A DNA stretch of 64,000 bases from Harriotta raleighana (lineage: Eukaryota): assembly GCA_050575255.1 (NCBI GenBank), contig JBNZDD010013638.1, positions 175,530 through 239,529 on the forward strand, given 5' to 3'. A program made the position numbers and the translations under genes. Every line of letters starts with the position of its first letter. The first letter of the stretch is position 1. The notes beneath the pieces are model-generated. The model saw nothing but the letters and a program-made list of their open reading frames with translations. It did not search any database and had not been told where the DNA came from. Shown piece after piece: positions 603 through 45,440 of this stretch.

Positions 603-1222
603 CTGTTGAAAGGGCACATTACATAATATGTCAACAGGTGAGAATGAACCACAAAAACTATTCACAAAGATGAGAAGAACAAAGTCGTGGACAGATTTTG
701 AGTTTTCTTCTAAAACACATTTCTAAATGGACCATGCAGATCCTTTTACTGTGTATATCCAACCTCTGTGCTTTTGCTGGTGGATTAATTTAGTTACTGT
801 GTCTCAAACACAATCACACAACTGCATAGTTATGCAATACTTGGAGGTGATGCAATTGAGGAGACTGTAAAATGAACATAGGCCTTTGCTTTCTTTGGTG
901 GCTTTATTGAGGTCAGATAATTGACTCTGTCATCGAAGACTGATTGACTAGAAATAACTGTCTGCAAACATTGTGCTCTCTGCAATGATGACAGAATCAG
1001 GTTGCCACGAAGGATAATTGAGGCCAAGGCACTGAAGGGCTTTCTTCATTGTAACTAACCGGTTGCATGGCAGACCTGGCAATAGTGGCAATTCACAGCA
1101 TGAGAAAAACGGTATCATGCAATGGTCGTTGGGATTGTCGTTGGGATTGTCGTACTGTCGTTGGGATCATACTAGTCATATCAACTGAGAAAGATAAGAC
1201 TGCTCTCCAAATAGGAACCTAC

Positions 1223-1376
1223 CTTTAACAGAGACGTTGAAGGGCTTGTCAGCTTTGCCAGCTGCTGTCTGGACATGGCAGAGCCATTCTCCTGAATCTG
1301 TTGGGTGTATCACAGGCACTTCGAAGGATGCAATGGTCTGATTAATTGGATGTGTTAATGTCTTTGTGGCAGTCGG
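1223..1376 (-). CDS. TEK: TEK exon 9 (Ig3, C-terminal part)
   Basis: tttcAG...GTaggt, 154 bp, phase 0-1. Encodes PTATKTLTHPINQTIASFEVPVIHPTDSGEWLCHVQTAAGKADKPFNVSVK. Confidence 0.93.
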
Positions 1377-2700
1377 CTGAAATTAATAAATAGGAAACAC
1401 TATAAGAACACACAGTTCTTCCCATCACTGGGAAATTGGATATGCCATCTTATCAGTTGGATCTCTTGTGTACAATATATTCAAGCATCCATTAGAGGAG
1501 TAAGCCTGTTTTAAATATAGGAATATTGTGATCATAATATTCAAATAATTATTTGTGAAAGATTAACACATTTGACTCTATCAGTGAAAGCATCTTCAAA
1601 TTTAAAACTCCTCCCCCAAGTAATCCCAAGTAACAATTGTATATACTGTAATATGCATTTGGCTAATTGTAATGTGGCTTATCATGCAGGTGATGACAAT
1701 GAGCCATTTGATGACAGTTTGGCCAAAGGTGACATCGCTCATAAGATCATAGGAGAGTTTTGGATGAAGATTCCTTGGCCCATTTGGCTCTTGCTTCCAT
1801 CACTGCGTCAAACTGATTTTTGGATGAGTCCAATGACATGGCCTCAAACACCCTTCCTGGTAACCTCTTCTGGTTGTTTAATTACCTCCCTGATGTCTAC
1901 CCTGAAACCATCCTTTCCAACTCTAAAACTGTGCATCCTAAACTATTATTCTAAGTTTATTTTCTCAATCCTATTTAAAATTTTATATAGCGCTACAAGG
2001 TTTTCCTTGATGCAGCTCTTTCCAATACTGAAGAGTCTTAGCTTGTCTAATTTCTGCTCATAACTTAGTCCTCTGAAGGGGAATCATCCATCTTGCTTTC
2101 CTTTGTACTGTTAGCGCCTTGGGACGTCCTCCTGATGTAGTTGGCGCTTTACAAATGCAATTTGTTGTTGGTGTCTCCAACAAAGATCTGGGCAGCCTTA
2201 TTATATTCTGGCAACCAGAAATGTACACAATAAATTTATTGATAAGTGTATAATGATGTGCATGGGCAACCACACTGAAGAATAAATGATTGTGCACTAC
2301 ATTTATACAGTGATACTAAGCAGCTAATTACAAAGGACATTATGTTATCAGTGCATATTTTCCCGAAGAGCCCAGTTCATTCCTTTACTGAGAGGAGACA
2401 CAGATGGCTTGCTTGGAGGTGATAATCTCACTCACATAGACCAGAAGGCAGCTGCAGTGTAGCGGGAATAGTTTAAGGCGGTCGTCAGTGCCTCAAGTGT
2501 AGTAGGACATACTCTTACAGGTTGGGTGTTGAGACAGTTTATTTTACATCTAATCATGCTGCTATACCTTTTCAAAGAGTTCTTGATATTGTGTTCCAAA
2601 AATAAGAAAGTGTTCTATATCTTGGTACTAATGTGTCTCACAGAAAACAGTAGAAAACGCGGGTTCGATTGCTGAATTAACTGTGTCCCAAACAACTTAC

Positions 2701-2855
2701 GTGAACCTCTCTTCCATTTGGCTTTATAAGCTGAATATCATCGTGAGTTGGCAGTGGATGGCCTGTTGCAGTACAATTGAGGTGTAAAGTAATACCCGAG
2801 TTCACTTCAATATTGTCAACCATATTCACCACCATAGGAAGCACGTTTCCAATCC
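2701..2855 (-). CDS. TEK: TEK exon 8 (Ig3, N-terminal part)
   Basis: ctttcAG...GTaagt, 155 bp, phase 1-0. Encodes GIGNVLPMVVNMVDNIEVNSGITLHLNCTATGHPLPTHDDIQLIKPNGREVH. Confidence 0.93.
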
Positions 2856-3624
2856 CTGAAAGAAATGACTGTGTTTACAAACAAGGGCAGTGTTTTACTA
2901 ACCTTCACTGATGAAAAATTGCACTGCTCACCAATAATAGACAGTAAAAATGGAAATAAAAATATCCAACACTGTTGTCTGCTTTGTACTTAATTCTTAA
3001 GTAGGTAAATAATTTTGGTAAATTTATGAATTGCAATGCTCACGGCTAGAAATAAACATTTGTTGCCTTTGTGGTAAATTATCATTATGAAACACTCTCA
3101 GGTCAGGTATTGCCTGGATTATAAAAGAGGTTTTCAGGAAGAGCAAAGATTGTCTCAGAGAGAAGCAATGCAATTTAGGAAAGCTGAAAATTTAGGAAAG
3201 GAATTGGAATATCTTGAGGGAACTAATCAGATCTTGGAACAAAGAATACCTCAGAGAAATGGAATAGATTTAGGGAACAGTGACTGCTTGAAAGGGAAGT
3301 GATGGATTTTGGTGGAAACCTCAGTCACTGATAAAACAGTTTCTAAGTAAACATTTAGTGGCAGATTTGTCAATAAATCTGAATTTCAAATTTTCGTACA
3401 GATCGATTCATGAACCTCATTGGGGGTGATATGAAGGCTGAAGAGAACAGATTGATACATTAGCATTGCAGTTGAATCGGCCATTAAATTGCTCAGCATA
3501 TGTATTTGTCTTCCCAATTATTTGACTCTGAAGACACTGGCAGCCATATTTGCCAAAAAATCCAATCACACTGAGTTCTAACACAAGCTAATAACATCAT
3601 GGATGTAGCCTCTTATTATATAAC

Positions 3625-5966: not shown

Positions 5967-6511
5967 CTGAAATTAAAAGGAATTGAAAAAAATAGTATGA
6001 CTGGATGTAAATCACACAGAGGCTTTGCAGTTTGTTTTTAAAAAGATCCCATCTGTGTAATTTTACAAGGTATAATTTGATATTAATAATTAATATATAA
6101 AAGGTATTGCAATGCAATAGATAAAACGTAACTGTTTATAGCCCCTTGTATTGAGTGACCTAGTTCGCTGATGATGGTCCATGATTTTTTTTTGCACCTT
6201 CAAGATATAACGCCTTTCATTTCAGGAGGATGTCTCACAATGCTTCACTGGATGTATAGTAAAGTATAGTTGGTTTTGTGGGTGATGTCTCATTTAAAGT
6301 ATATTAAACAGGAGAAAGAAGTGGTAATAATTATAATATGGTGTCTTATCACGTTGTCAAAACATCTCAAGCAGTCACAAAGTGAATGATTAATTTTAAA
6401 TGAGGGATAGTTGGCCAGAGCAGAAACTCCCTTCTTTTTTGAATATTATTATGGGATCTTTAGCATCCACCCGAACGGACATATAGGTCCTGGAGTTATT
6501 GTCTCATGGTA

Positions 6512-6816
6512 TAGTAAAACCTTATTTATCCATGACTCGATGAACCGGAAAACCCGTTCAACCGCCATCTCCAAAACAAAGTCTTGATTTGAAAGTCGAG
6601 TTTTTTTTACTTCCGTTGGGTGAGGGCTGCCATTGTGAAGTTAAGTATAAATAATAAAGTACTAATATAATATTTTGTTATTATTTAGTCTATTAATAAT
6701 ATGCTATGTGCTAAAATAATTTTTAATTTAAAAAATATATATATTTTTTTTAAAACGTTTAACCGGAAACTGTCACTGGCCAGGTCCCGTGGGTGCTGGA
6801 TAAATGGGTTTTACTG
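6512..6816. mobile_element. Tc1/mariner (Tigger-like) MITE
   Basis: TIRs tagtaaaaccttatttatcc / ggataaatgggttttactg, flanked by TA. Confidence 0.8.
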
Positions 6817-7124
6817 TACCTCTGATAATGCAACGGAGTGTATACTCATGAGAGATAAATATAAAGAGGTCTTCCACTCTACCAGTCAACAAACTCAAAA
6901 GGTAGGGCTGTATCAGCTGGACAAGAGATGTGAAACATAACATTACAATGGTATTCCTGCTGTGTGCAGATACAAAAACGTAAGAATATACAAAATTAAC
7001 ACTACCATGTTGTGGAAGTAAAGAATTTCTTAAATCTTAAAGTTGGCTTTAGTACATCTTCAGTAGGACGGGTAAGAATACACATTTAACATATGTAAAT
7101 TTTACACAGTTTCTAATTTCTTAC

Positions 7125-17494: not shown

Positions 17495-17854
17495 CTCTCC
17501 ATTTTATTTTAAAATCATTATGAGATAAAAACAAATTTACGGGATCATGGAAATGACAGCCTATTTGAAGGTCCTTGCAGCATCTGCTGGATCTTAATCC
17601 ACCACTAAAGGTATCTACCCCAATCCCAATAACCTCCTCATTTCCTTGTAGCCTTCTACATTCTACCTCTTCCAATGATTGTCCACTTCAACTCCCTTTT
17701 AAATGTTTTACGGTCTCAGCCTCCAAGAGCTGGGTGTGACAATTTTCTGCTGAATAGTCTTGAGGCTGCTTTATATGGTAACTGAAAAAAAACAACTGGT
17801 ATATCTCAAAAGTGCTGTTGAGAATCTCCATCTTGTAAGTATGTGCGTTTTTAC

Positions 17855-18169
17855 CTTGTTCTGACATCTTAACAGTAGTTATTGTGGTGCTTGTTTCTTT
17901 AAATCGCCCATCGCAATAGAACAGTCCAATTCCATCCGACTGCTTCTCTGTCTTCCACAAAACCTTCAACGAGTAGTTTTTGATCCTATTTTGATTCAAA
18001 GGCCATCTTGATTGATTGATGAGAGCATGGACGTTGTGCCCTATTGATACCTTTGATACCTGATCTGGATCAGGGTAACTGCCAGCAACGCACAGCAGCG
18101 ATGTCTCCGAGGTTGCGAATAGAGGACTCGAGTTTATTAATGTCAAGTCAGGCAATGCCTCAGCTAAGC
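17855..18169 (-). CDS. TEK: TEK exon 2 (Ig-like domain 1)
   Basis: ctctAG...GTaaaa, 315 bp, phase 1-1. Encodes LAEALPDLTLINSSPL...ETSLLCVA...KVLWKTEKQSDGIGLFYCDG...TITTVKMSEQ, similar to Tie2 Ig1. Confidence 0.95.
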
Positions 18170-18246
18170 CTAGAGTGAAGAAAAAAACACATCAATAAGC
18201 ATACCAGCTCAAAATGTAGTGTAGACATACACATATAAACACAGTA

Positions 18247-19226
18247 CAGTTAATCCTCACTTAATGTTGTAGTTGTGTTCTTGAAAATTGCGACTTTAAG
18301 CAAAACAACGTTAAGCGAACCCATTTTTCCCACAAGAATTAATGTATAAACTGGAATTAGGTTCTTTTGGACATTTTTTGTCAACATTTTCTAAAACAAA
18401 ACCCATTATAATTTGAAATACATGTACATTTATAAATGTAAAATACAGTAAAACCCTATTTATCCTGCACCAACGGGACCTGGCCAGTGGCAGTTTAATG
18501 GTTTTCCGGATGAATTTAAAAAAAAATATATTAAAAAAAATATTTTAATATCTACCATATTAATAATAGACTAAATAATAAGAGAATATTGTATTAGTAA
18601 TTTATTATTTATATTTAACTTCGCCATGGCAGCCCTCACCCGACGGAGGTAAAAAAAACGCAACTTTTAAAAGGAGCAGGTGCGAGTTTAGACTCAACTA
18701 GCGGACAGCTAAAATACCTGCACCAGTACTCGCATGCGACAATCGATTCATTAAATCCGTCATCACTATTCTGCCAGATAATTTCCGGTTTATCGAATCG
18801 GAACTTTTTTTGAGGTTTCAGTTCAACGGGGTTTCCGGTTCATCGAGTCACGGATAAACGGGGTTTTACCGTAGTTTGGTTGTAGATTCTTTTACTACCA
18901 AACTGTTTTTTTTACTCCAGACTCACAACTGTCACTTGGTACCTGGGTGTTTTTGACTCATGTTTATGGAGGATGGCACAAATAAATCACGATAAAAAAT
19001 TACAGATATCACACCTGTGCACAAACTTAAAATGGCGACGTTAAGACTGGGATGGAGCTGTGTAAGAATACCGGATGGTAGTATACGCTACCCAAGTTTG
19101 TTTTCACCGTTGGCGAATGAAGTAATAGCAAATGTCGCAACGTTAAATGGATATATGTTCCCCTATGTATCAGCAACGTAATAACGAAACAACGTTGACC
19201 GAAGCAACGTTAAGCAAGTTTACCTT
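18247..19226. mobile_element. Tigger-like MITE carrying a nested MITE
   Basis: TA-cagttaatcctcacttaatgttg ... caacgttaagcaagtttacctt-TA. A related copy lies at 57977-58428 in the opposite orientation. Confidence 0.7.
18446..18871. mobile_element. Nested Tc1/mariner MITE (family of 6512-6816, inverted relative to it)
   Basis: TA-cagtaaaaccctatttatcc ... ggataaacggggttttaccg-TA. Confidence 0.85.
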
Positions 19227-22200
19227 TACATTATCAAGAAGGAAACTGTGCTTCCATCTGTTATCAAAGGTATCAATAGGGCACAACATCCATGCTATCT
19301 ATCATTCAGTAATAGCTATACCTTTCAAAATAGTGTGAATGGGTAGTCCTGGGAAGCTGCTAGGATTTCGAGCCTCATTTATTACTGCCTGAAAATGCTT
19401 GCGTTGGTTCAGCCCTGGCTCAGTACAGCCCTTGCTCAGCTCAATGTTGGCTCAGTTCACCATTAGCTTGGATTAGCTCTGGTTTGTTTCAGCACTGGTC
19501 TGGTTCGTTCAGCCTTGGATTATTCCTTTCTTGTTTTTTCTCGGCACTGTTTCAGATCAGAATTGATTCAGTTTCCTTCTCTCTCCTTTACACACAGGCT
19601 CTGTTTTCTAATTCAATTAAGATTGATCCTTTTTTTTTTAGGAAGTATTCACCTAGCTTTCCTCCAAATGCAAATTAATTTTTAGGCCATGCTTTCCATT
19701 TATCATTTTCTGTAGAAAAGTCTGACATTGAGCTATCCCAATGTATTAATGAGTAAAGATGGACTTGAAGTTTGGTGGTTTCAGTGTGAAGGCCTGTGAT
19801 GAATTAGCAGACCTCAGATGGAGCAAGAATTAGGCTTCGGTTAGGGATTATAAAAACAACCAGTCTTCCTATGCCTGATAACTGTCAAGAGACCCCTGTT
19901 GGAAGGTGTGTGTTGAGATCGGGTAAGGATAGCATCAGACCTGACTATGATGTTGCCTGGAGATAAATCTCCTGCCAACACTCAGTGTCAAGGCTCGCAC
20001 ATAAATAATGGCCACTTGGGCAAGTTTCTGAATGATGACAAGTGATTGTGGACAAGCAACCTCAGTGGAAAGGAAATGCAATCAATGTACCTCAGGCGAG
20101 GAGAATATTTGAGGTTTTATTGCGCACAAGAACATAGGAATGCACGTGAATAGAAAAGGCTTGAATCGTGTTTTGAGTTGGAAAAAAATTAAATATAAAT
20201 CAACCCTATTCAATTTCTCATGTCATTCAACTTATTGTGTTAACCTAATTATAAATAATAATAATCTCTGCATTTGGTATAGAGCCTTGGAAGGACTTCT
20301 CAAAGCGCTTCACGGGACTTATTGTAAAGGGTAGTGACTTTGTATTGCATCCATCTTGTCATAATGTCTCAAAGTGCGTCACAGAAGTTTTCTGGAAAAT
20401 GGGAGTAACTGTATTTTTGGCCAACACTGCAATGAATGACTACATTTTTATCTGGAGGATTGTTAGCCAGGACATCACATGCAAAGGAATGTGCCTCCAT
20501 CAGTGGAGTACCACCACCCCAACCACTGCACTGGACTGTCAAGAACAACAACAGATCCCTCCACGCCGGACGGAGTCTCAGAGAGCTTCAACCTACGTTA
20601 TTGGGGCAAGGCTCAAGTAGGGTTTAAATCTACAACCACCTGATTCTGAGGCAAGAATCCTACCAACTGAACCAGACTGACACCTACCTATTCCACGTTT
20701 ACATCCATGTTGTTGTGGTTAGATAAAATTTATGGTCCATTCTCGCAGTAGTTGAAGGCCATAAAATACATCCATTTATTTATATATATATATATGTGTG
20801 TGGTTCGGAATATATCACCATAATGCCTCAGTGTGGAGGAGGTCTAATTGCTATTACAAGTGATTGCCCACAATTGGCTCACAGTGCTCAGCATAAAAAA
20901 TGAACTTGCAGTTTACCAACACGAAAAGCATGCATTTTTGGTGACATACTTTGTGAATCCGCTTTGATAAATTTTAGTTGTTTGACTGGACACTTGGGAT
21001 TTTTATGAGAGAAAAACATAATCATTTAATTTTGGTCCAAGGACAAGGTAAATTGCACAATTTACTGCAACCAGAAACGCAGAGCTGAGGTATCGATCTT
21101 ATGAGTGTACTTACATGAAGAGTGTGCATTTTGTTGATCAGGTACCTCAAATAGATAAGCTTATTACACTAAAGTTACAAAGTACACCATTGCTTCATGT
21201 ATGTGTAAAGAAAGAATAAAATATTAGTCAAATATGTTTTCATACGACAGTGCTCCTTTAATATCCTCTGATGGTGCAAGGCTCATGTGTCTATGAGTTA
21301 CGATACTTTAAACAAGTAAAATAAATCTTGAACCCAGCATTAAGTGCACTTATATTTGATTTAAGACTTTGTGTCAATCTTTTACATTTAGGTGGAGGGC
21401 AAATTGACCTCAGGAGGTGTTGCGAGAAGTAGATCCAGATGTTTTTTTTATTTGACCAGTGTCACATTGTGGCCCCATAGTTATAACTACACACCACAAC
21501 ATACATAAATGTCATTACAACTGGTTTAGAAATTAGTTAGAAAACAAACCAAGAGTGACTGCAGTTTAGGCACGGAGAACATAATGGTGATTGTATCTTA
21601 CATATGGATCTATTTAAGCACCAAGAAAGTCATGCTCTTGACAAAGTTATGCTTTATGTCTTTAATTGGGAATAAGCTGAGTTCACCTAACTCAGAAACT
21701 GCATCCCCCACTCTGCACACATACCTCACTGTCGTGTCTCTACAATGATTAAATACTGCATTTAGCAAAAGCATAGTAAGTGCGCAAATATTCTGGAATG
21801 TTAGTGTAATATATCTTTAAATGTAAGGTGGCAGATTGGGGTACACAATTTGCCTGCCATGTTTCCGTACAAAATACAGTCACTTTGAGCGCCTTGGGAC
21901 GTCCTCCTGATGTGAAAGGCACTATACAAATGTAATTTAGTTGTTGTTATTGTTGTTGTTGAGATGTCTTCCAGACGTGAAAGGTGTTATATGAAATGCA
22001 AGGATTATTATTAATTTAGTGTGTGGGATAGTATCTATGACAAAGAGAAATTTGGCAGAGTCTCTACAAGAAGCTAGCTAGATGGGCCAAATGGACCTTT
22101 TCGATTCCATGATTTCTGTGTCACCTCAATCTAGAATCCACAATTTCTCTGCTTCTTAACAAATTTTAAATACGCCAAGTTTACCTAATTGAGCAGTTTA

Positions 22201-24913
22201 GCAATGTTGTTCAGCCCTGCTTGAAGCAAAGTTATTTTCCCCAAAATACCACAACTGTGCTCGTTAAAACTGCTAAAAGACTTTGAGGGGGATTCTGAAT
22301 TACATTAGCCAGGCAATGAACGGAAAGGTTTGCATTTATCTCTTGCTCAGATCTGGCATTAGAGGAAAACAAAGGCTACATGCTTTGAATCAGAATGAGA
22401 TTTAAAAGCAGAGAATTGGAAGTTTTTTTGTGTGACAAAGTACGCAGCTGCTTTTGATGGTATATGCATGTATTTATACACATGTTTATAGTGGAGGGGG
22501 ATGGAGGACCATTGAAATGGATCTGCTACAATATAATGAGCTGCCTCACAGAGGAGCAGGGCTTGAGAAGGCTTAGACTCATTAGGAAGGTGTTACTGAG
22601 CTGGATCATTTACTTCATGAAGACCTGCAGGAACAGGAACAGTTCATCATTAGATCTGTCAAACAGTTCCAAAGGACATCACCATTGTCTCAACTGTTAT
22701 ACAACTGGGATGTTGTCAGACATCACAGGGACCTCCCTGGAGGGGGCCAACTTGCCGTACATCACTTAACACACACACATCAGTCTTAGTGGGGATCAGA
22801 AACATCATCAGATCCACAGTACAGCTGGAGTTCTATATTAATTGAGAATAATTCACTGCTTTCAGTAACCATTACAGCATCCCCTTCACAACAGACCCAA
22901 CAGAGGGGATACCATATATTAACATGCAGATAATGAAAGGGGTGGGAATCATGCTTGCTAATCCCAGGAGAAACTCAGAATTAATATATTCTAAGGGCAT
23001 AGAAGGAAAGATGGATGACTGGCTCTTGGGTATATATGCAGGCGGTAAATTCATAGCTTATAGCCATATTGCATAACACTGACTATAAGCTGTGTATGCT
23101 ATAAACAGCCAAAAAACTATTAATTTAGACCCAGGGCGTAAGATGTCATAACACAAAGAAGGATTTCTAGCCGAGGCCCTGCAAATCCTTGTGGACAAGA
23201 TTTTACCGAGTGAAGTCAGTGCATTTTTAGTGTGGGAGGGTTTGACTCTACATTGTACTTATATACAGAGCACTGCATGATGACATAAATATCAGTCAAC
23301 TGACACCATTCTATTCATCGCTATATCTTCGAGTGCACATCACTTGAACTAAATAGGTCAAAAGGAAATGCTGAACAAATGAATTAAGGAAGTTCAAATG
23401 TTTCTGCCCAACACAATAGCACAGTATGTCCTAAAATTTTACTCTGTCAGCCTTAAAGTATTTTGTAGTATGTCACTGGTAATGATGTGAGAAATTAGGC
23501 CAGTATCCAATCAAATCCCTGACGTTCCAGGTTTGACAGCCAGACTAGTCCCTTAAAGATCTATAAAAGTGACATTAATGATGCGGAACAGTCTGTTTGA
23601 TTAACTTCTTCATGTTTCATGGAATACCTGCAACACGCCAGAGATTTGGAGCTTGATTCTTTCATCTTATGATATATTTCCCTCTGTTGGGAGCCTTCCT
23701 GTGCAGTATACACAACACTATTTAATGATTTTGAAAAGGCTATTCGGGATATAGATGACATATTTGAGTCACTTATTGCCACATTTATATTGCGAATATC
23801 AATTTGCAAGATTAATAAGGCAATGTAGCTCAATTAGAAATAATTGGATGAAACAAATTATTTTAAAGTTTTATAAGGGAGCTGACAATTAATATGTAAT
23901 ATAATAATAATACAGTAATTGCATTTGTCAACGAGTGCTCTGACCACTGAGCTATAGGACTAAATATCTGGAATGTAAACAGTTACAGATCTTTCAGTTG
24001 GATAACAGAGGTATGGAGGCACTCACTTTTGCTTTTAACACTTTGCACTGTGACAGGATAATTTGAAACATTGATTAAACAATCTCTGAATGTCTACCAT
24101 ATTATTCTTGCTTCCAAAACCCCTGGCATCGAATCCCCATTCTGGCAAATCAGATTTCTGTGTGACCTGCATTGTGCATTCTGAAGATAAACAGTGAACC
24201 TTTAAATCCTCCTATTCAATTTCCTCCATGCTTTTCTGTGGTAATGTCCATATAATCGATAATTTGCAATTTAACATACCATTTTTCCAAAGCAAACACA
24301 TATACAGTACACAATCACACACAGAAACTTCATTTTCTGCATTTGGAAGCAAATAATGCAAAGATAGGCTTTATATTTATTACCATTTTATTTACTTGGT
24401 TTATTTGCACTGCTAGTTGGTTTATTTGTTTTAATAAACATTTAAACACAGGACTTTTGACTTTGTAATTTTTGGGGTATTGATTGGATGTCTAACACCA
24501 TGCTTAAGAGCAACCAAACCAATTGGAGAGTTCTGTATGCTATTGGAAGTTTCCCTATGTCTGTAATGGAATGTGCACTCTCTCCTTGGAGGAAGAGTAT
24601 TTTGGAGAAGATTAGGCACAGGTTGTTAAAAGCCACAGCATGAAGACCTTCAAGAGTGCACATGGATAAAACTGCATAGCTTGTTGCTACTTGTCCATCT
24701 AGGACTACCCTACTCATTATGGTTTGGGTTTATAGGGTTAGCAGGAACTGAATGGGAAAAATCAGAGCCAGGATGTGTCCTAGAATACCCTGGCATCATC
24801 TGTGTTAGGAACGACCACATCCCATTAAGCAAAGATTTTTGTAAATATATTATTAGTTGAATCCAAAAGTTAGTTGTTGTAATGACAAATGAAATTACAA
24901 AGGAATTTATATT

Positions 24914-25232: not shown

Positions 25233-25676
25233 ATATTGTATGAAATATAAAATAGCAGTATCTGTAATATGAGAGACTGACACTACAGAAAACAAGTTAC
25301 CGTAACAACAAATAATGCTGAACTATCACAGATAGCAACTCTGAGACAAGAGATTTACCTACAAAGTATTCAAATAATGCAAATTAGGCTTTATATTTAA
25401 TTTACTTGGTTTATTTGTTAGTCTGTGGCTATTTTAAGGGGTAGATACTGCTTGGGATTAGTGTGGTACACAAAGTGCACTCAGATATTGCAGCCCAGCA
25501 CCATTTTAAAACATTGATTTGAAGGTGAGGAGCAAGCAGAGAGAGAACAGACCTGTATCTGGTTGTGGGATTTACGTGAAGTCCTATCATTCCTGTAGCT
25601 GTATTGTGAGCATGTTTCACACCGATCCCTACTTGACTGTTCAGCGCCTTGGGACGTCCTTCCGATGTAAATGTAA

Positions 25677-42844: not shown

Positions 42845-43750
42845 AGGAACATATGCAGGAGCAGGCCATTCGGCCCCTCAAGCCTGCCTCACAATTCAAT
42901 AAATTCATGGCTGATCTTCTAATGCAGAGGGAGATAGCTTTTTACCAATGTGGGCCAGACCATTATAGGCCTGTCCAGGTGTGGGCAGGAACAATAACCG
43001 ATTATTTTAAGCCGCCACCTCAGCAGTCACTCCAGGGCTGGGAAATTCAAAAGAAGTGGGTGGGATGACGTCATGCGGCTGCCGGTTGCCAATTGGCTGA
43101 GGCCTCGGGGAATCGAGAATGATGGCGAAGGTGCGTCTCGTCGGCCGAGGATGAGGCCCAGGTGGTCCCCAGGGCCTCGAGGCTCGTGGCGGGCCGGATG
43201 GGTTGTAGGTTGCCAACCCCTGTTCTAGTGTAACTCCACCTTCCCGCCTTATCCTCATATCCCTTATTCCCTCTATCCATTAGAAATCTATCAATCTAAG
43301 TCTTGAATATATTCGAGGACTGAACATCTGCAGCCTTTTGGGGTAGAGAATTCCATAAATTCACTACCCTCTGAGTGAAGAAGTGCTTCCCCAATTCTGT
43401 TCAAAAAGGCTGACTGTTAATCTTAAAACTGTGACCCCCTAGTTATAGATTCTACTACCCAGGGGAACAATCTCATAGTGTCATTCCCCTTAATAATCTT
43501 ATAGGTTTCTATAAGATCACCTCTAATTCTTTTATAGAATATAGACCTAGTTCACTCAACATATCCTCATAGGTCAACCGCCTCATTCCTGGAACTCATC
43601 TTGTGAATCTATGCTGCAACCCCTCTAAGGCAAGTATGTCCATTCTTAAACAAGGAGCTCAAAACTGCACACTAGCCGTGGTCTCACCAAACCCTACACA
43701 GTTTCAGCGAGATTTCCCTACTCTTGTATTCTAACCACTTTGCAATGAAA
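42845..43750 (-). mobile_element. CR1 3' fragment interrupted by a hAT MITE
   Basis: Reverse 3' end aggccattcggcccctcaagcctg, plus CR1 ORF2 C-terminal remnants. Confidence 0.75.
42925..43222. mobile_element. hAT (Charlie-like) non-autonomous element
   Basis: 8-bp TSD ttctaatg/ttctagtg. Right TIR gttgccaacccctg; left TIR is degenerate (cagagggagatagc). Confidence 0.7.
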
Positions 43751-45440
43751 AGCTGCCTGCAAGTTTACAAATGGCATGAAATTGATGATTTCAGATCCTT
43801 TGGTATAAAAACTTAAATCTTCTTGTTGTCATTGAAGGGGTTAAATCATGAGTGGAGAGAATTTAGAAACTATAAAATAATCCTAAAATAATACCGGTAT
43901 CAAATTTTTAAACTATCTGGCTTGTGTATGAATAACCATTCCAATTTTCAAAAACCATAAGGTGGCAATTTGTTTAAAAACTAGTTAAACATCAATTGAT
44001 ATGTTCTTCTAACTAGTATCCTCACTATTTGATGTATGGCAGTGCAAACAGAAAGGATTATACAAGTATAAAGAATTTGGATCTGCCAACAAATTGACAC
44101 ACATTTCTGAGTAACTGAGAGGGAAAAACATCACAAGGTTAGAAAAATAAAAATAGATGCATCACTTCAAACAAATAATTTAGAACATACAAAATCAATT
44201 AGACAATGGTAGTACAAAATAAACCATAAGAAAGTTGGTGAAGATAATTAATGTAGAAGTATAAGTAAAGCTGCCTGGAATTTTACTAATGGAAGAAAGT
44301 GATGATTTCAGATCCTTTGGTTTAAAGACATAGAAGTCATCTTGTTGTCATTGAAGGAGCTAAATCGTGTGTGGAGAAAATATTAACAAAACATACAAGG
44401 AATGTCTGGCTCTTGCTGGGAAGGAAATGACAGGATCATGTTTGGGTACTAAAAAGTTTCAGGAGCTGTAAATCTTATTGAAATGAAAATCAAATGGACA
44501 ATGGATAAGTATGCAACCTTCATGATTATGCATCTGTCCTGTACCTTCCAACTCAACTCCCAAATCTGTACAGTATATTAAATTATCTTAAAGCATAGTG
44601 TGGCATTTTTTTGTGTGTGTGCAATTCTAAATCTCCATTAACAGTAGCATTTGTGAATGCTTTCAGTGTATGATTCCAAGTCCCAATGAGAGGCTTGAAC
44701 CTACAACTTTCTGATTCAGAAGCAAAAGTGCTACCACTGAACCAGGCTGACACATGGTGGGGGAAGAGGGTGGGAGTGCGCCTTAAGGATAAATCTTTTG
44801 AGAATAAATAATCTTCAGAAAGGGTAAATCAGTACTCTCTTGGCTCTTCTAATCTATTACAAAGCTGCTTCTGTGTAAATTTGTACTTGACTGAATGGTT
44901 GCTTTTTTCTTTCATAGAACTCCAGAAGCTCTTAAGAAGTCTTCTAATAATATTATACAAGTTACATAACAACTCACATTTACACAGTGCCCCTCACACA
45001 GGGTAGTATCTCAGATTGCTTAATGAAAGATACAAATGTAAATCTTTGGTTTTATTTTCCACTGCAGTGAAATCTCAAATAATCTACCACAATATTTATG
45101 GGAATTTAAAGAGATTTTTTCACAGCTATCCTTAATTGATTCCAAAAGTATCAATTTCTGTGACTGAGGAGTGATTTATGCAACAACAACAACTTCGATT
45201 TATGTAGTGCCCTCCACGCCGGACAGCGTCTCAGAGTGCTTCACAATAACGGATCCTGGGCCTGAGCCAGGGAGAGGGGGAAAAAGATGACCAAAGGTGT
45301 GGTCGAAAATAAAGGTCTTCGGCTGAGACCTGAAACTAGGAAGAGAGGGGGTGAGGCGAAGCGAGTGAATGTGCAGACTTTCATAAACACATCAAACATT
45401 CAATAATGGGTTTCAATAAACAGAACTTCATAAAACACTA

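What the first reader, a model, noticed from the sequence alone, without database searches (positions are those of the whole stretch)
18024..19304. 35-bp inverted copy of TEK exon 2 in intron 1: candidate exon-intron RNA duplex (ECS-like)
Seen: intron 1 at 19262-19296 (+: tatcaaaggtatcaatagggcacaacatccatgct) is the reverse complement of coding exon 2 at 18024-18058 (codons VSKVSIGHNVHA), matching 34/35 with a weaker extension to about 19304. In the minus-strand pre-mRNA the single difference gives a G-U wobble, so the two segments 1.2 kb apart could form an uninterrupted 35-bp duplex. The spacer is mostly nested MITEs, which could fold back and bring the arms together. Known: exon/editing-complementary-sequence duplexes direct ADAR recoding (GRIA2 type) and affect splicing. 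Inference: this may be a lineage-specific editing or splicing control on Tie2 Ig1 (possible K>R/E, I>V, N>S/D, H>R), or simply a recent neutral template-switch duplication.
Basis: partly seen in the sequence, partly recalled or inferred. Interest (0 to 1): 0.75.

Follow-up and report, generated by a model that had tools for sequence, protein, structure and literature searches.

The report
Backwards TEK exon scrap in intron
A 35-base piece of a coding exon of the blood-vessel receptor gene TEK (Tie2) is repeated backwards in the intron just upstream in what is probably a chimaera fish, so the RNA is predicted to pair with itself there, but it is most likely a harmless DNA-copying scar, with a small untested chance that it would guide RNA editing that restores a conserved arginine.

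Summary
The inverted copy is real: 34 of 35 bases, one G-U pair in the minus-strand RNA, and a predicted 35-bp helix (pair probability 0.99). It is the core of a ~79-bp copy (17986-18064 vs 19256-19333) whose distal part is degraded. The gene is TEK, most likely of a chimaera other than Callorhinchus milii. Two nested TA-flanked elements make up 81% of the 1203-nt spacer; without them the arms lie 221 nt apart. No editing data and no orthologous intron DNA were obtained, so function is untested. Internal evidence leans neutral: the exon arm is no better conserved than the rest of the exon against C. milii, the core has no A-C mismatch, and 1 difference in 35 fits neutral ageing. One point favours function: the core covers a His codon that is Arg in 12 of 12 other vertebrate TEK proteins, and A-to-I editing would restore it (chance about 5-14%, post hoc). 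Verdict: most likely a neutral template-switch scar with a by-product duplex; selected editing guide about 15%. The scan noted this kind before on other DNA (four unchecked notes, three judged neutral).

The parts
17855..18169 (-). TEK (Tie2) coding exon 2, 315 nt, phase 1-1 (skippable in frame), aligning to the N-terminal ~100 residues of the Tie2 ectodomain (Ig1; domain name recalled)
   Evidence: AG at 18171-18170 and GT at 17854-17853; 88% to C. milii TEK; aligns to residues 3-99 of PDB 2gy5_A, E 2.3e-14
18024..18058 (-). Exonic arm of the 35-bp core (codons VSKVSIGHNVHA); 12 adenosines, 8 of them nonsynonymous if read as G
17986..18023 (-). Exonic template of the degraded distal extension
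18033..18038 (-). His-Asn codons in place of the vertebrate Arg-Asp (G-R-D motif); A>G at 18037 and 18035 would give Arg and Asp
   Evidence: Arg in 12 of 12 and Asp in 7 of 12 non-holocephalan TEK proteins; human chain reads G-R-D at this place
19262..19296 (+). Intronic inverted copy, 35-bp core (antisense to exon 2 in the pre-mRNA)
19297..19333 (+). Degraded distal part of the copy (5 substitutions and 5 indel events); partly paired in the predicted fold
   Evidence: anchored extension reached by 15-55 of 5000 random window stretches in five scoring schemes; helices 19325-19333 (p 0.86) and 19311-19316 (p 0.73) at 37 C
19256..19261 (+). Proximal 6-nt edge, 4 of 6 matching; possible microhomeology, not above chance
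   Evidence: 624-3215 of 5000 random stretches score as well
18247..19226 (.). Outer TA-flanked non-autonomous element with about 25-bp degenerate terminal inverted repeats (Tc1/mariner-like by recalled TA and CAGT ends); a second copy lies near 57974-58415
18446..18871 (.). Inner TA-flanked element nested in the outer one; ends predicted to pair
   Evidence: other copies near 6510-6818, 52970-53380, 60855-61593
29821..29874 (-). First coding exon (signal peptide), which places the copy in the ~11.65-kb intron 1
   Evidence: tblastn with C. milii P0017, 12 of 18 identical, E 0.007

Best explanation
The intron carries a real inverted copy of part of TEK exon 2 that most likely arose by one local template switch during DNA replication or repair and has probably been drifting neutrally since, and the exon-intron RNA duplex it is predicted to form is likely a by-product. 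Shown: the copy, its 79-bp extent, the nested elements in the spacer, and the predicted helix. Inferred: a nascent strand in intron 1 switched to the opposite strand of exon 2 and copied 35-79 nt in reverse orientation, perhaps when the two sites were only about 220 nt apart (if the transposons came later; order not established). The degraded flank is either uneven decay of one old copy or pre-existing partial similarity that guided the switch. Both arms are in the nascent RNA before intron 1 is removed, so ADAR could edit some adenosines at low, unselective levels, and this would be tolerated because the stretch is a variable part of the domain.
For: The exon arm shows no extra constraint: 2 of 12 core codons and 5 of 27 extended codons differ from C. 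milii, against 8 of 77 elsewhere in exon 2 (Fisher p 0.31), whereas both arms of the GRIA2 Q/R duplex are highly conserved across vertebrates (PMC3553965, passages). Outgroup conservation of core columns averages 5.4 of 12 against 7.1 for the rest of the exon. The single core difference is G>A at a CpG in a window with CpG observed/expected 0.38, a common neutral change (established knowledge). One difference in 35 has probability 0.12-0.16 at 9-10% divergence, about the per-lineage age of the neighbouring transposon copies. The flank has more indels than the transposon yardstick (5 of 13 events, p 0.04), which fits a copying or alignment origin better than clock-like decay. Short inverted copies by template switching are common germline events that need no selection (PMC5453318 passages; PMC8421209 passages).
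Against: Differences are unevenly placed: 222 of 20000 permutations give a 35-column window with at most 1 event (not corrected for the fact that the core is why the feature was noticed). The core covers one of only 2 A>G-restorable changes among 94 otherwise invariant columns, which 18 of 374 random 12-codon windows would do (51 of 374 at a looser threshold). The one core difference is wobble-compatible on the transcribed strand, and its A matches the Ile seen at that codon in several shark and ray proteins. At 1203 nt, or 221 nt without the transposons, the distance exceeds the 100-bp range that the MMBIR study searched. No empty allele in a relative was seen.
Confidence: 0.62

Rival explanations
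1. The copy is a selected editing-complementary sequence: it pairs with exon 2 before intron 1 is spliced and guides ADAR to recode the receptor, most interestingly His>Arg (18037) and Asn>Asp (18035), which would restore the vertebrate G-R-D motif lost in chimaeras.
For: Arg is invariant in 12 of 12 outgroup proteins and the His codon is one A>G step from it; 18 of 374 windows would catch such a site. Stable duplex, 0 of 200 shuffles as strong. Core better kept than flank (222 of 20000). Upstream-intron ECSs are a recognised class (PMC6724681 passages). By hand, with C. milii codons inferred from protein only: the 4 transitions needed inside the extended region would all leave G-U pairs, against 1 of 3 outside (weak).
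Against: Both sites are A-U pairs with a 5' C, a less preferred neighbour (PMC11120146 passages). A guide older than the Arg>His change would be expected to keep C opposite (A-C mismatch), but the copy carries the derived A at both sites. An unbroken 35-bp helix lacks the bulges tied to site-selective editing and exposes 8 nonsynonymous adenosines. A>G-restorable changes are common elsewhere in the gene (15 of 297 outside columns at the loosest threshold). C. milii shares the His but has other changes in the core.
Confidence: 0.15
2. An old ~79-bp inverted copy decayed, and a later template switch between the two arms (quasi-palindrome correction or gene conversion) refreshed 35 bp. This is neutral but two-step.
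For: Explains a sharp near-perfect core inside a significant degraded flank; conversion of near-perfect inverted repeats into perfect ones is described for human and chimp (PMC5453318 passages).
Against: Needs two events, and the described cases have short spacers; the flank's indel excess is odd for plain decay.
Confidence: 0.14
3. The duplex is kept because it tunes skipping of the in-frame exon 2 and so the share of receptor lacking the first Ig domain.
For: Exon 2 is 315 nt, phase 1-1; an annotated white-shark isoform (P0012) lacks exactly residues 18-119. The fold also buries the exon-2 acceptor in a second helix with 18905-18925 (p 0.82-0.93).
Against: The core lies 111-146 nt inside the exon and covers no splice site. 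The second helix is no better than chance as a DNA match (761 of 1924 or more random stretches score as well) and lies inside the outer transposon. The shark isoform is an annotation in a lineage not known to carry the copy.
Confidence: 0.08
4. Assembly artefact: a short chimeric inverted join.
For: No reads were laid on the stretch; the window has a probable assembly duplicate elsewhere (33982-36672).
Against: The copy has a CpG-type difference and a degraded flank and sits in unique sequence with no N nearby.
Confidence: 0.01

Closest known systems
Template-switch / MMBIR-type templated inverted insertions (PMC5453318; PMC8421209; passages read)
   Same: Short reverse-complement copy of nearby sequence that creates a new inverted repeat able to fold in RNA; ragged or dissimilar flanks; no selection needed.
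   Different: Template now 1203 nt away (221 nt without the transposons), farther than the 100-bp range searched in PMC8421209; no empty allele seen; junction microhomology not above chance.
Intronic editing-complementary sequences of ADAR recoding sites (GRIA2 Q/R, FLNB, GRIK2; PMC6724681, PMC3553965; passages read)
   Same: Exon paired with a neighbouring intron within 2.5 kb, duplex long and stable enough for ADAR, variable spacer.
   Different: No editing shown; core is an unbroken helix without bulge or A-C mismatch; exon arm is not conserved above the rest of the exon; conservation of the intron arm unknown.
Restorative (harm-permitting) A-to-I recoding (PMC6881472; passages read)
   Same: An A>G change in RNA would return His to the ancestral Arg and Asn to Asp.
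   Different: Described from measured editing in coleoids; here only a potential site, and the guide carries the derived base, so it probably postdates the substitutions.

Membership tests
Intronic ECS (ADAR recoding duplex) | Stable duplex between the exonic site and intron sequence within about 2.5 kb, stronger than shuffles | tested here: met
   -54.2 kcal/mol vs shuffle mean -25.0, 0 of 200 as strong (duplexfold and 200 shuffles, not the RNAplex and 1000 shuffles of PMC6724681); helix probability 0.99
Intronic ECS (ADAR recoding duplex) | A-to-I editing observed in the exon | not tested
   No RNA reads were examined
Intronic ECS (ADAR recoding duplex) | Editing lost when the intronic arm is deleted | not testable with these tools
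   Needs a minigene or genome edit
Intronic ECS (ADAR recoding duplex) | Both arms conserved across species, with compensatory changes | tested here: inconclusive
   Exon arm at protein level only: 2 of 12 core codons differ from C. milii, no extra conservation; no orthologous intron DNA
Intronic ECS (ADAR recoding duplex) | Imperfect duplex (bulges, mismatches) that singles out a site | tested here: not met
   All 12 core adenosines are in A-U pairs of an unbroken 35-bp helix; imperfect pairing only in the distal flank
Template-switch inverted insertion | Reverse-complement copy of a unique nearby template | tested here: met
   Each arm hits only the other within the window; exon 2 is the only one of 10 TEK exons scanned with such a hit; rest of the genome not held
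Template-switch inverted insertion | Microhomology at the junctions | tested here: inconclusive
   Proximal edge not above chance; distal flank similar above chance but could be copy or guide
Template-switch inverted insertion | Ancestral allele without the copy in a relative | not tested
   No orthologous DNA obtained
Restorative recoding site | A>G returns the ancestral amino acid | tested here: met
   His>Arg (Arg in 12 of 12 outgroups) and Asn>Asp (7 of 12)
Restorative recoding site | The site is edited in vivo | not tested
   No RNA reads were examined
Known structured RNA family (Rfam) | Match to a covariance model | tested here: not met
   0 matches at E up to 0.1 in 18880-19500

The most novel reading that the evidence does not exclude
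A chance inverted copy of TEK exon 2 was recruited in chimaeras as a new editing guide that lets ADAR turn a genomic His-Asn back into the Arg-Asp that other jawed vertebrates carry in Tie2: a datable birth of a restorative recoding site from a template-switch scar, in a non-neural vertebrate receptor.
Probability: 0.12. Interest if true: 0.7.

Novelty: new member of a known kind. Interest (0 to 1): 0.3.

Why it matters
If neutral, it is an ordinary example of how template switching seeds exon-intron duplexes, the raw material for editing sites. If the duplex is edited and conserved, it would be a rare case where the origin of a vertebrate ECS can be traced to one duplication and tied to the loss of an otherwise invariant residue, which would make the restorative-editing idea (PMC6881472) directly testable on one site. 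I found no report of TEK recoding in the held library (searches, listings only; 0 hits for TEK or TIE2 in the 7 supplementary files of PMC9989829, a study whose main text does not mention sharks or cartilaginous fish). Subscription papers and bioRxiv supplements were not searchable.

Tried and rejected
Own genome: not held, so uniqueness is shown only within the window. Sequencing runs: no RNA holder listed, which is no evidence on expression or editing; 11 of 14 rows held part of the stretch, none was laid, and their shares are not used as evidence. No reads were laid, so editing, assembly support and cross-species conservation stay open. Metagenome scan with the exon-2 protein: 596 pattern matches, 0 confirmed. 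Search for exon-sized chimaera protein fragments: 1 candidate, 0 significant. Earlier notes by place and by sequence: nothing. Rfam: nothing. A larger ancient copy reaching the exon-2 acceptor (suggested by the helix 18905-18925: 18165-18188) was rejected: its best local score is matched by 761 of 1924, 1013 of 1931 and 1251 of 1932 random stretches. Proximal extension of the copy: not above chance. Transversion excess in the copy (5 of 8): not significant against the transposon yardstick (p 0.17). Dating the copy from C. milii residues failed: the copy matches the window at the informative positions, but outgroups make the window state ancestral or ambiguous at all but one CpG-prone site (Ile/Val). 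The copy as part of a transposon: rejected within the window, since it lies 29-35 nt outside the outer element's end and has no other copy.

Full report
Observation. In the minus-strand RNA the difference is exon G (18032) opposite intron U (19288). Anchored at the core, the distal 38-nt extension is reached by 55, 15, 16, 19 and 20 of 5000 random window stretches in five scoring schemes, and by 18, 0, 0, 1 and 9 of 2000 shuffles; the proximal side is not above chance (a first run with 400 nulls agreed).

Gene and organism. The exon (17855-18169, minus strand, 315 nt, phase 1-1 from the splice sites) encodes 104 full codons whose only significant hit among longer proteins (1 of 140 candidates) was Callorhinchus milii TEK at 88%. 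It aligns to residues 3-99 of the human Tie2 ectodomain structure 2gy5. Eight further coding exons lie downstream and the signal-peptide exon lies at 29874-29821, so intron 1 is about 11.65 kb. The window differs from C. milii at 13 of 104 residues, shares with it a 3-residue insertion that 11 of 12 outgroup proteins lack, and matches even an intronic 14-codon stretch at 13 of 14. I infer a holocephalan other than C. milii. The insertion comes from a 9-bp tandem duplication inside the core and the copy carries it (seen in the sequence), so the copy, or its last refresh, is younger than that duplication.

Spacer. Between the arms lie 1203 nt. An outer element with TA flanks and degenerate terminal repeats spans 18247-19226 and holds an inner one at 18446-18871; both have other copies in the window at about 77-83% identity. 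The label Tc1/mariner-like is recalled, not from a call. They make up 81% of the spacer, and removing them leaves 221 nt. Whether they came before or after the copy is unknown.

RNA structure. The duplex is in both the MFE and centroid folds of 17855-19340. In the partition function of 17780-19420 the 35-bp helix has mean probability 0.99 at 37 C and 1.0 at 10 C, with -62.3 kcal/mol for the core and -83.4 for the extended arms; the opposite strand would give -79.7, so there is little strand bias. The inner element's ends pair; the outer element's ends form no listed helix. In an ECS-type test modelled on PMC6724681 (passages read), the 31-mer round 18037 scores -54.2 against a shuffle mean of -25.0, with 0 of 200 as strong; of 49 windows tiled over seven TEK exons, the two on the core were the strongest (-45.0 and -43.2, next -36.7). 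These are equilibrium predictions; co-transcriptional folding and protein binding are not modelled.

Is it kept by selection? The direct tests (editing in RNA, orthologous intron DNA) could not be made: no genome is held, no reads were laid, and searches for relatives gave nothing. Indirect evidence against selection: the exon arm is not more conserved than the rest of the exon (2 of 12 core and 5 of 27 extended codons differ from C. milii, against 8 of 77; p 0.31), unlike the GRIA2 duplex (PMC3553965, passages). The core columns are less conserved among 12 outgroups than the rest of the exon (5.4 vs 7.1 of 12, with three insertion columns counted as 0). The one core difference is a CpG transition in a CpG-depleted window (0.38). 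As a neutral yardstick I aligned 60 of 80 transposon copy pairs (overlapping, so not independent): 827 transitions, 552 transversions, 254 indels. At 9-10% per-lineage divergence, about half the pairwise distance of the spacer elements, at most 1 difference in 35 has probability 0.12-0.16. The copy's 5 indels in 13 events exceed the yardstick (p 0.04) and its 5 transversions in 8 substitutions do not (p 0.17). All 12 core adenosines sit in A-U pairs and 8 would recode, whereas site-selective editing is linked to short or broken duplexes (PMC11120146, passages).

Indirect evidence for selection, told as fully: the events are unevenly spread, with 222 of 20000 permutations giving so clean a 35-column window, though this ignores that the clean core is why the feature was noticed. 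Among 473 mapped codons, 94 columns are invariant in 12 of 12 outgroups; the window differs at 3, two of these can be restored by one A>G, and one is the His at 18038-18036 in the middle of the core, where the outgroups all have Arg. The next codon, Asn, would become the Asp of 7 of 12 outgroups. A random 12-codon window would catch such a site in 18 of 374 cases (51 of 374 at the 10-of-12 threshold; two sites at the 7-of-12 threshold in 28 of 374). This was found after the fact. It fits the definition of a potential restorative site (PMC6881472, passages), but the copy carries the derived A opposite both sites, and both have a 5' C, less preferred than U or A. The best context in the core is U-A-G at 18042 (Ile>Met). 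The copy's A at the wobble position matches the Ile of several sharks and rays, which could mean the copy predates the change to Val shared with C. milii, or simply CpG decay.

Mechanism. Most likely (0.62) one local template switch copied exon sequence in reverse into the intron, a process documented as a common germline event that creates foldable inverted repeats with ragged flanks (PMC5453318, passages; PMC8421209, passages). The flank is then uneven decay or the partial similarity that guided the switch (inference). The duplex probably forms and may be edited at low level as a by-product (inference). Rivals: a selected editing guide, most interestingly restorative (0.15); an old copy refreshed by conversion (0.14); control of exon-2 skipping (0.08), for which the only hints are the in-frame exon and a white-shark isoform annotated without residues 18-119; assembly artefact (0.01). 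That angiopoietin binds the second Ig domain rather than this one is recalled, not checked.

Comparison and novelty. It works like the structural half of an intronic ECS but is not filed as one: editing and conservation are untested and the selective-site anatomy is not met. It fits the template-switch class in orientation and uniqueness, with distance and junctions inconclusive. Searches of the held library found no report of TEK recoding or of this element (listings and abstract starts only; passages; supplements, 0 hits in 7 files). Earlier notes of this scan describe the same kind of inverted exon copy in MYO5B, HCFC1, elephant-shark TEX261 and an insect nicotinic receptor gene, three judged neutral and one an editing guide; these are unchecked AI notes and are not counted as support. 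Verdict: new member of a known kind, interest 0.3; the restorative-guide reading has probability about 0.12 and would deserve 0.7.

Noticed in passing
window 33982-35326 and 35328-36672: A 1345-bp, 100% identical direct duplicate on either side of a single N at 35327; probably an assembly join artefact.
   Followed up: no
window 54171-54334 and 54648-54811: 164-bp inverted repeat, 97% identical, 314 nt apart; probably the ends of a young transposon.
   Followed up: no
window 19894-19935 (-): Intron-1 stretch that translates to 13 of 14 residues of the first exon predicted in the C. milii UniRef entry P0001; either well-conserved intron or an unannotated alternative first exon.
   Followed up: no
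window 18905-18925 with 18165-18188: Predicted 12+8-bp helix that buries the exon-2 acceptor (p 0.82-0.93), using G-U pairs; not above chance as a DNA match.
   Followed up: yes
window 18036-18059 (-): Both chimaera TEK proteins have a 3-residue insertion from a 9-bp tandem duplication and have lost the Arg of the G-R-D motif, which is present in 12 of 12 other vertebrate TEK proteins compared.
   Followed up: partly
P0012 (white shark TEK isoform X4): Annotated isoform lacks exactly the exon-2 residues (18-119 of P0004).
   Followed up: no
window 43749-43862 / 44267-44381 and 24350-24407 / 25371-25417: Other local two-copy duplicates (direct, 84% and 79%, 405 and 964 nt apart), showing that short local duplications occur elsewhere in this window.
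   Followed up: no
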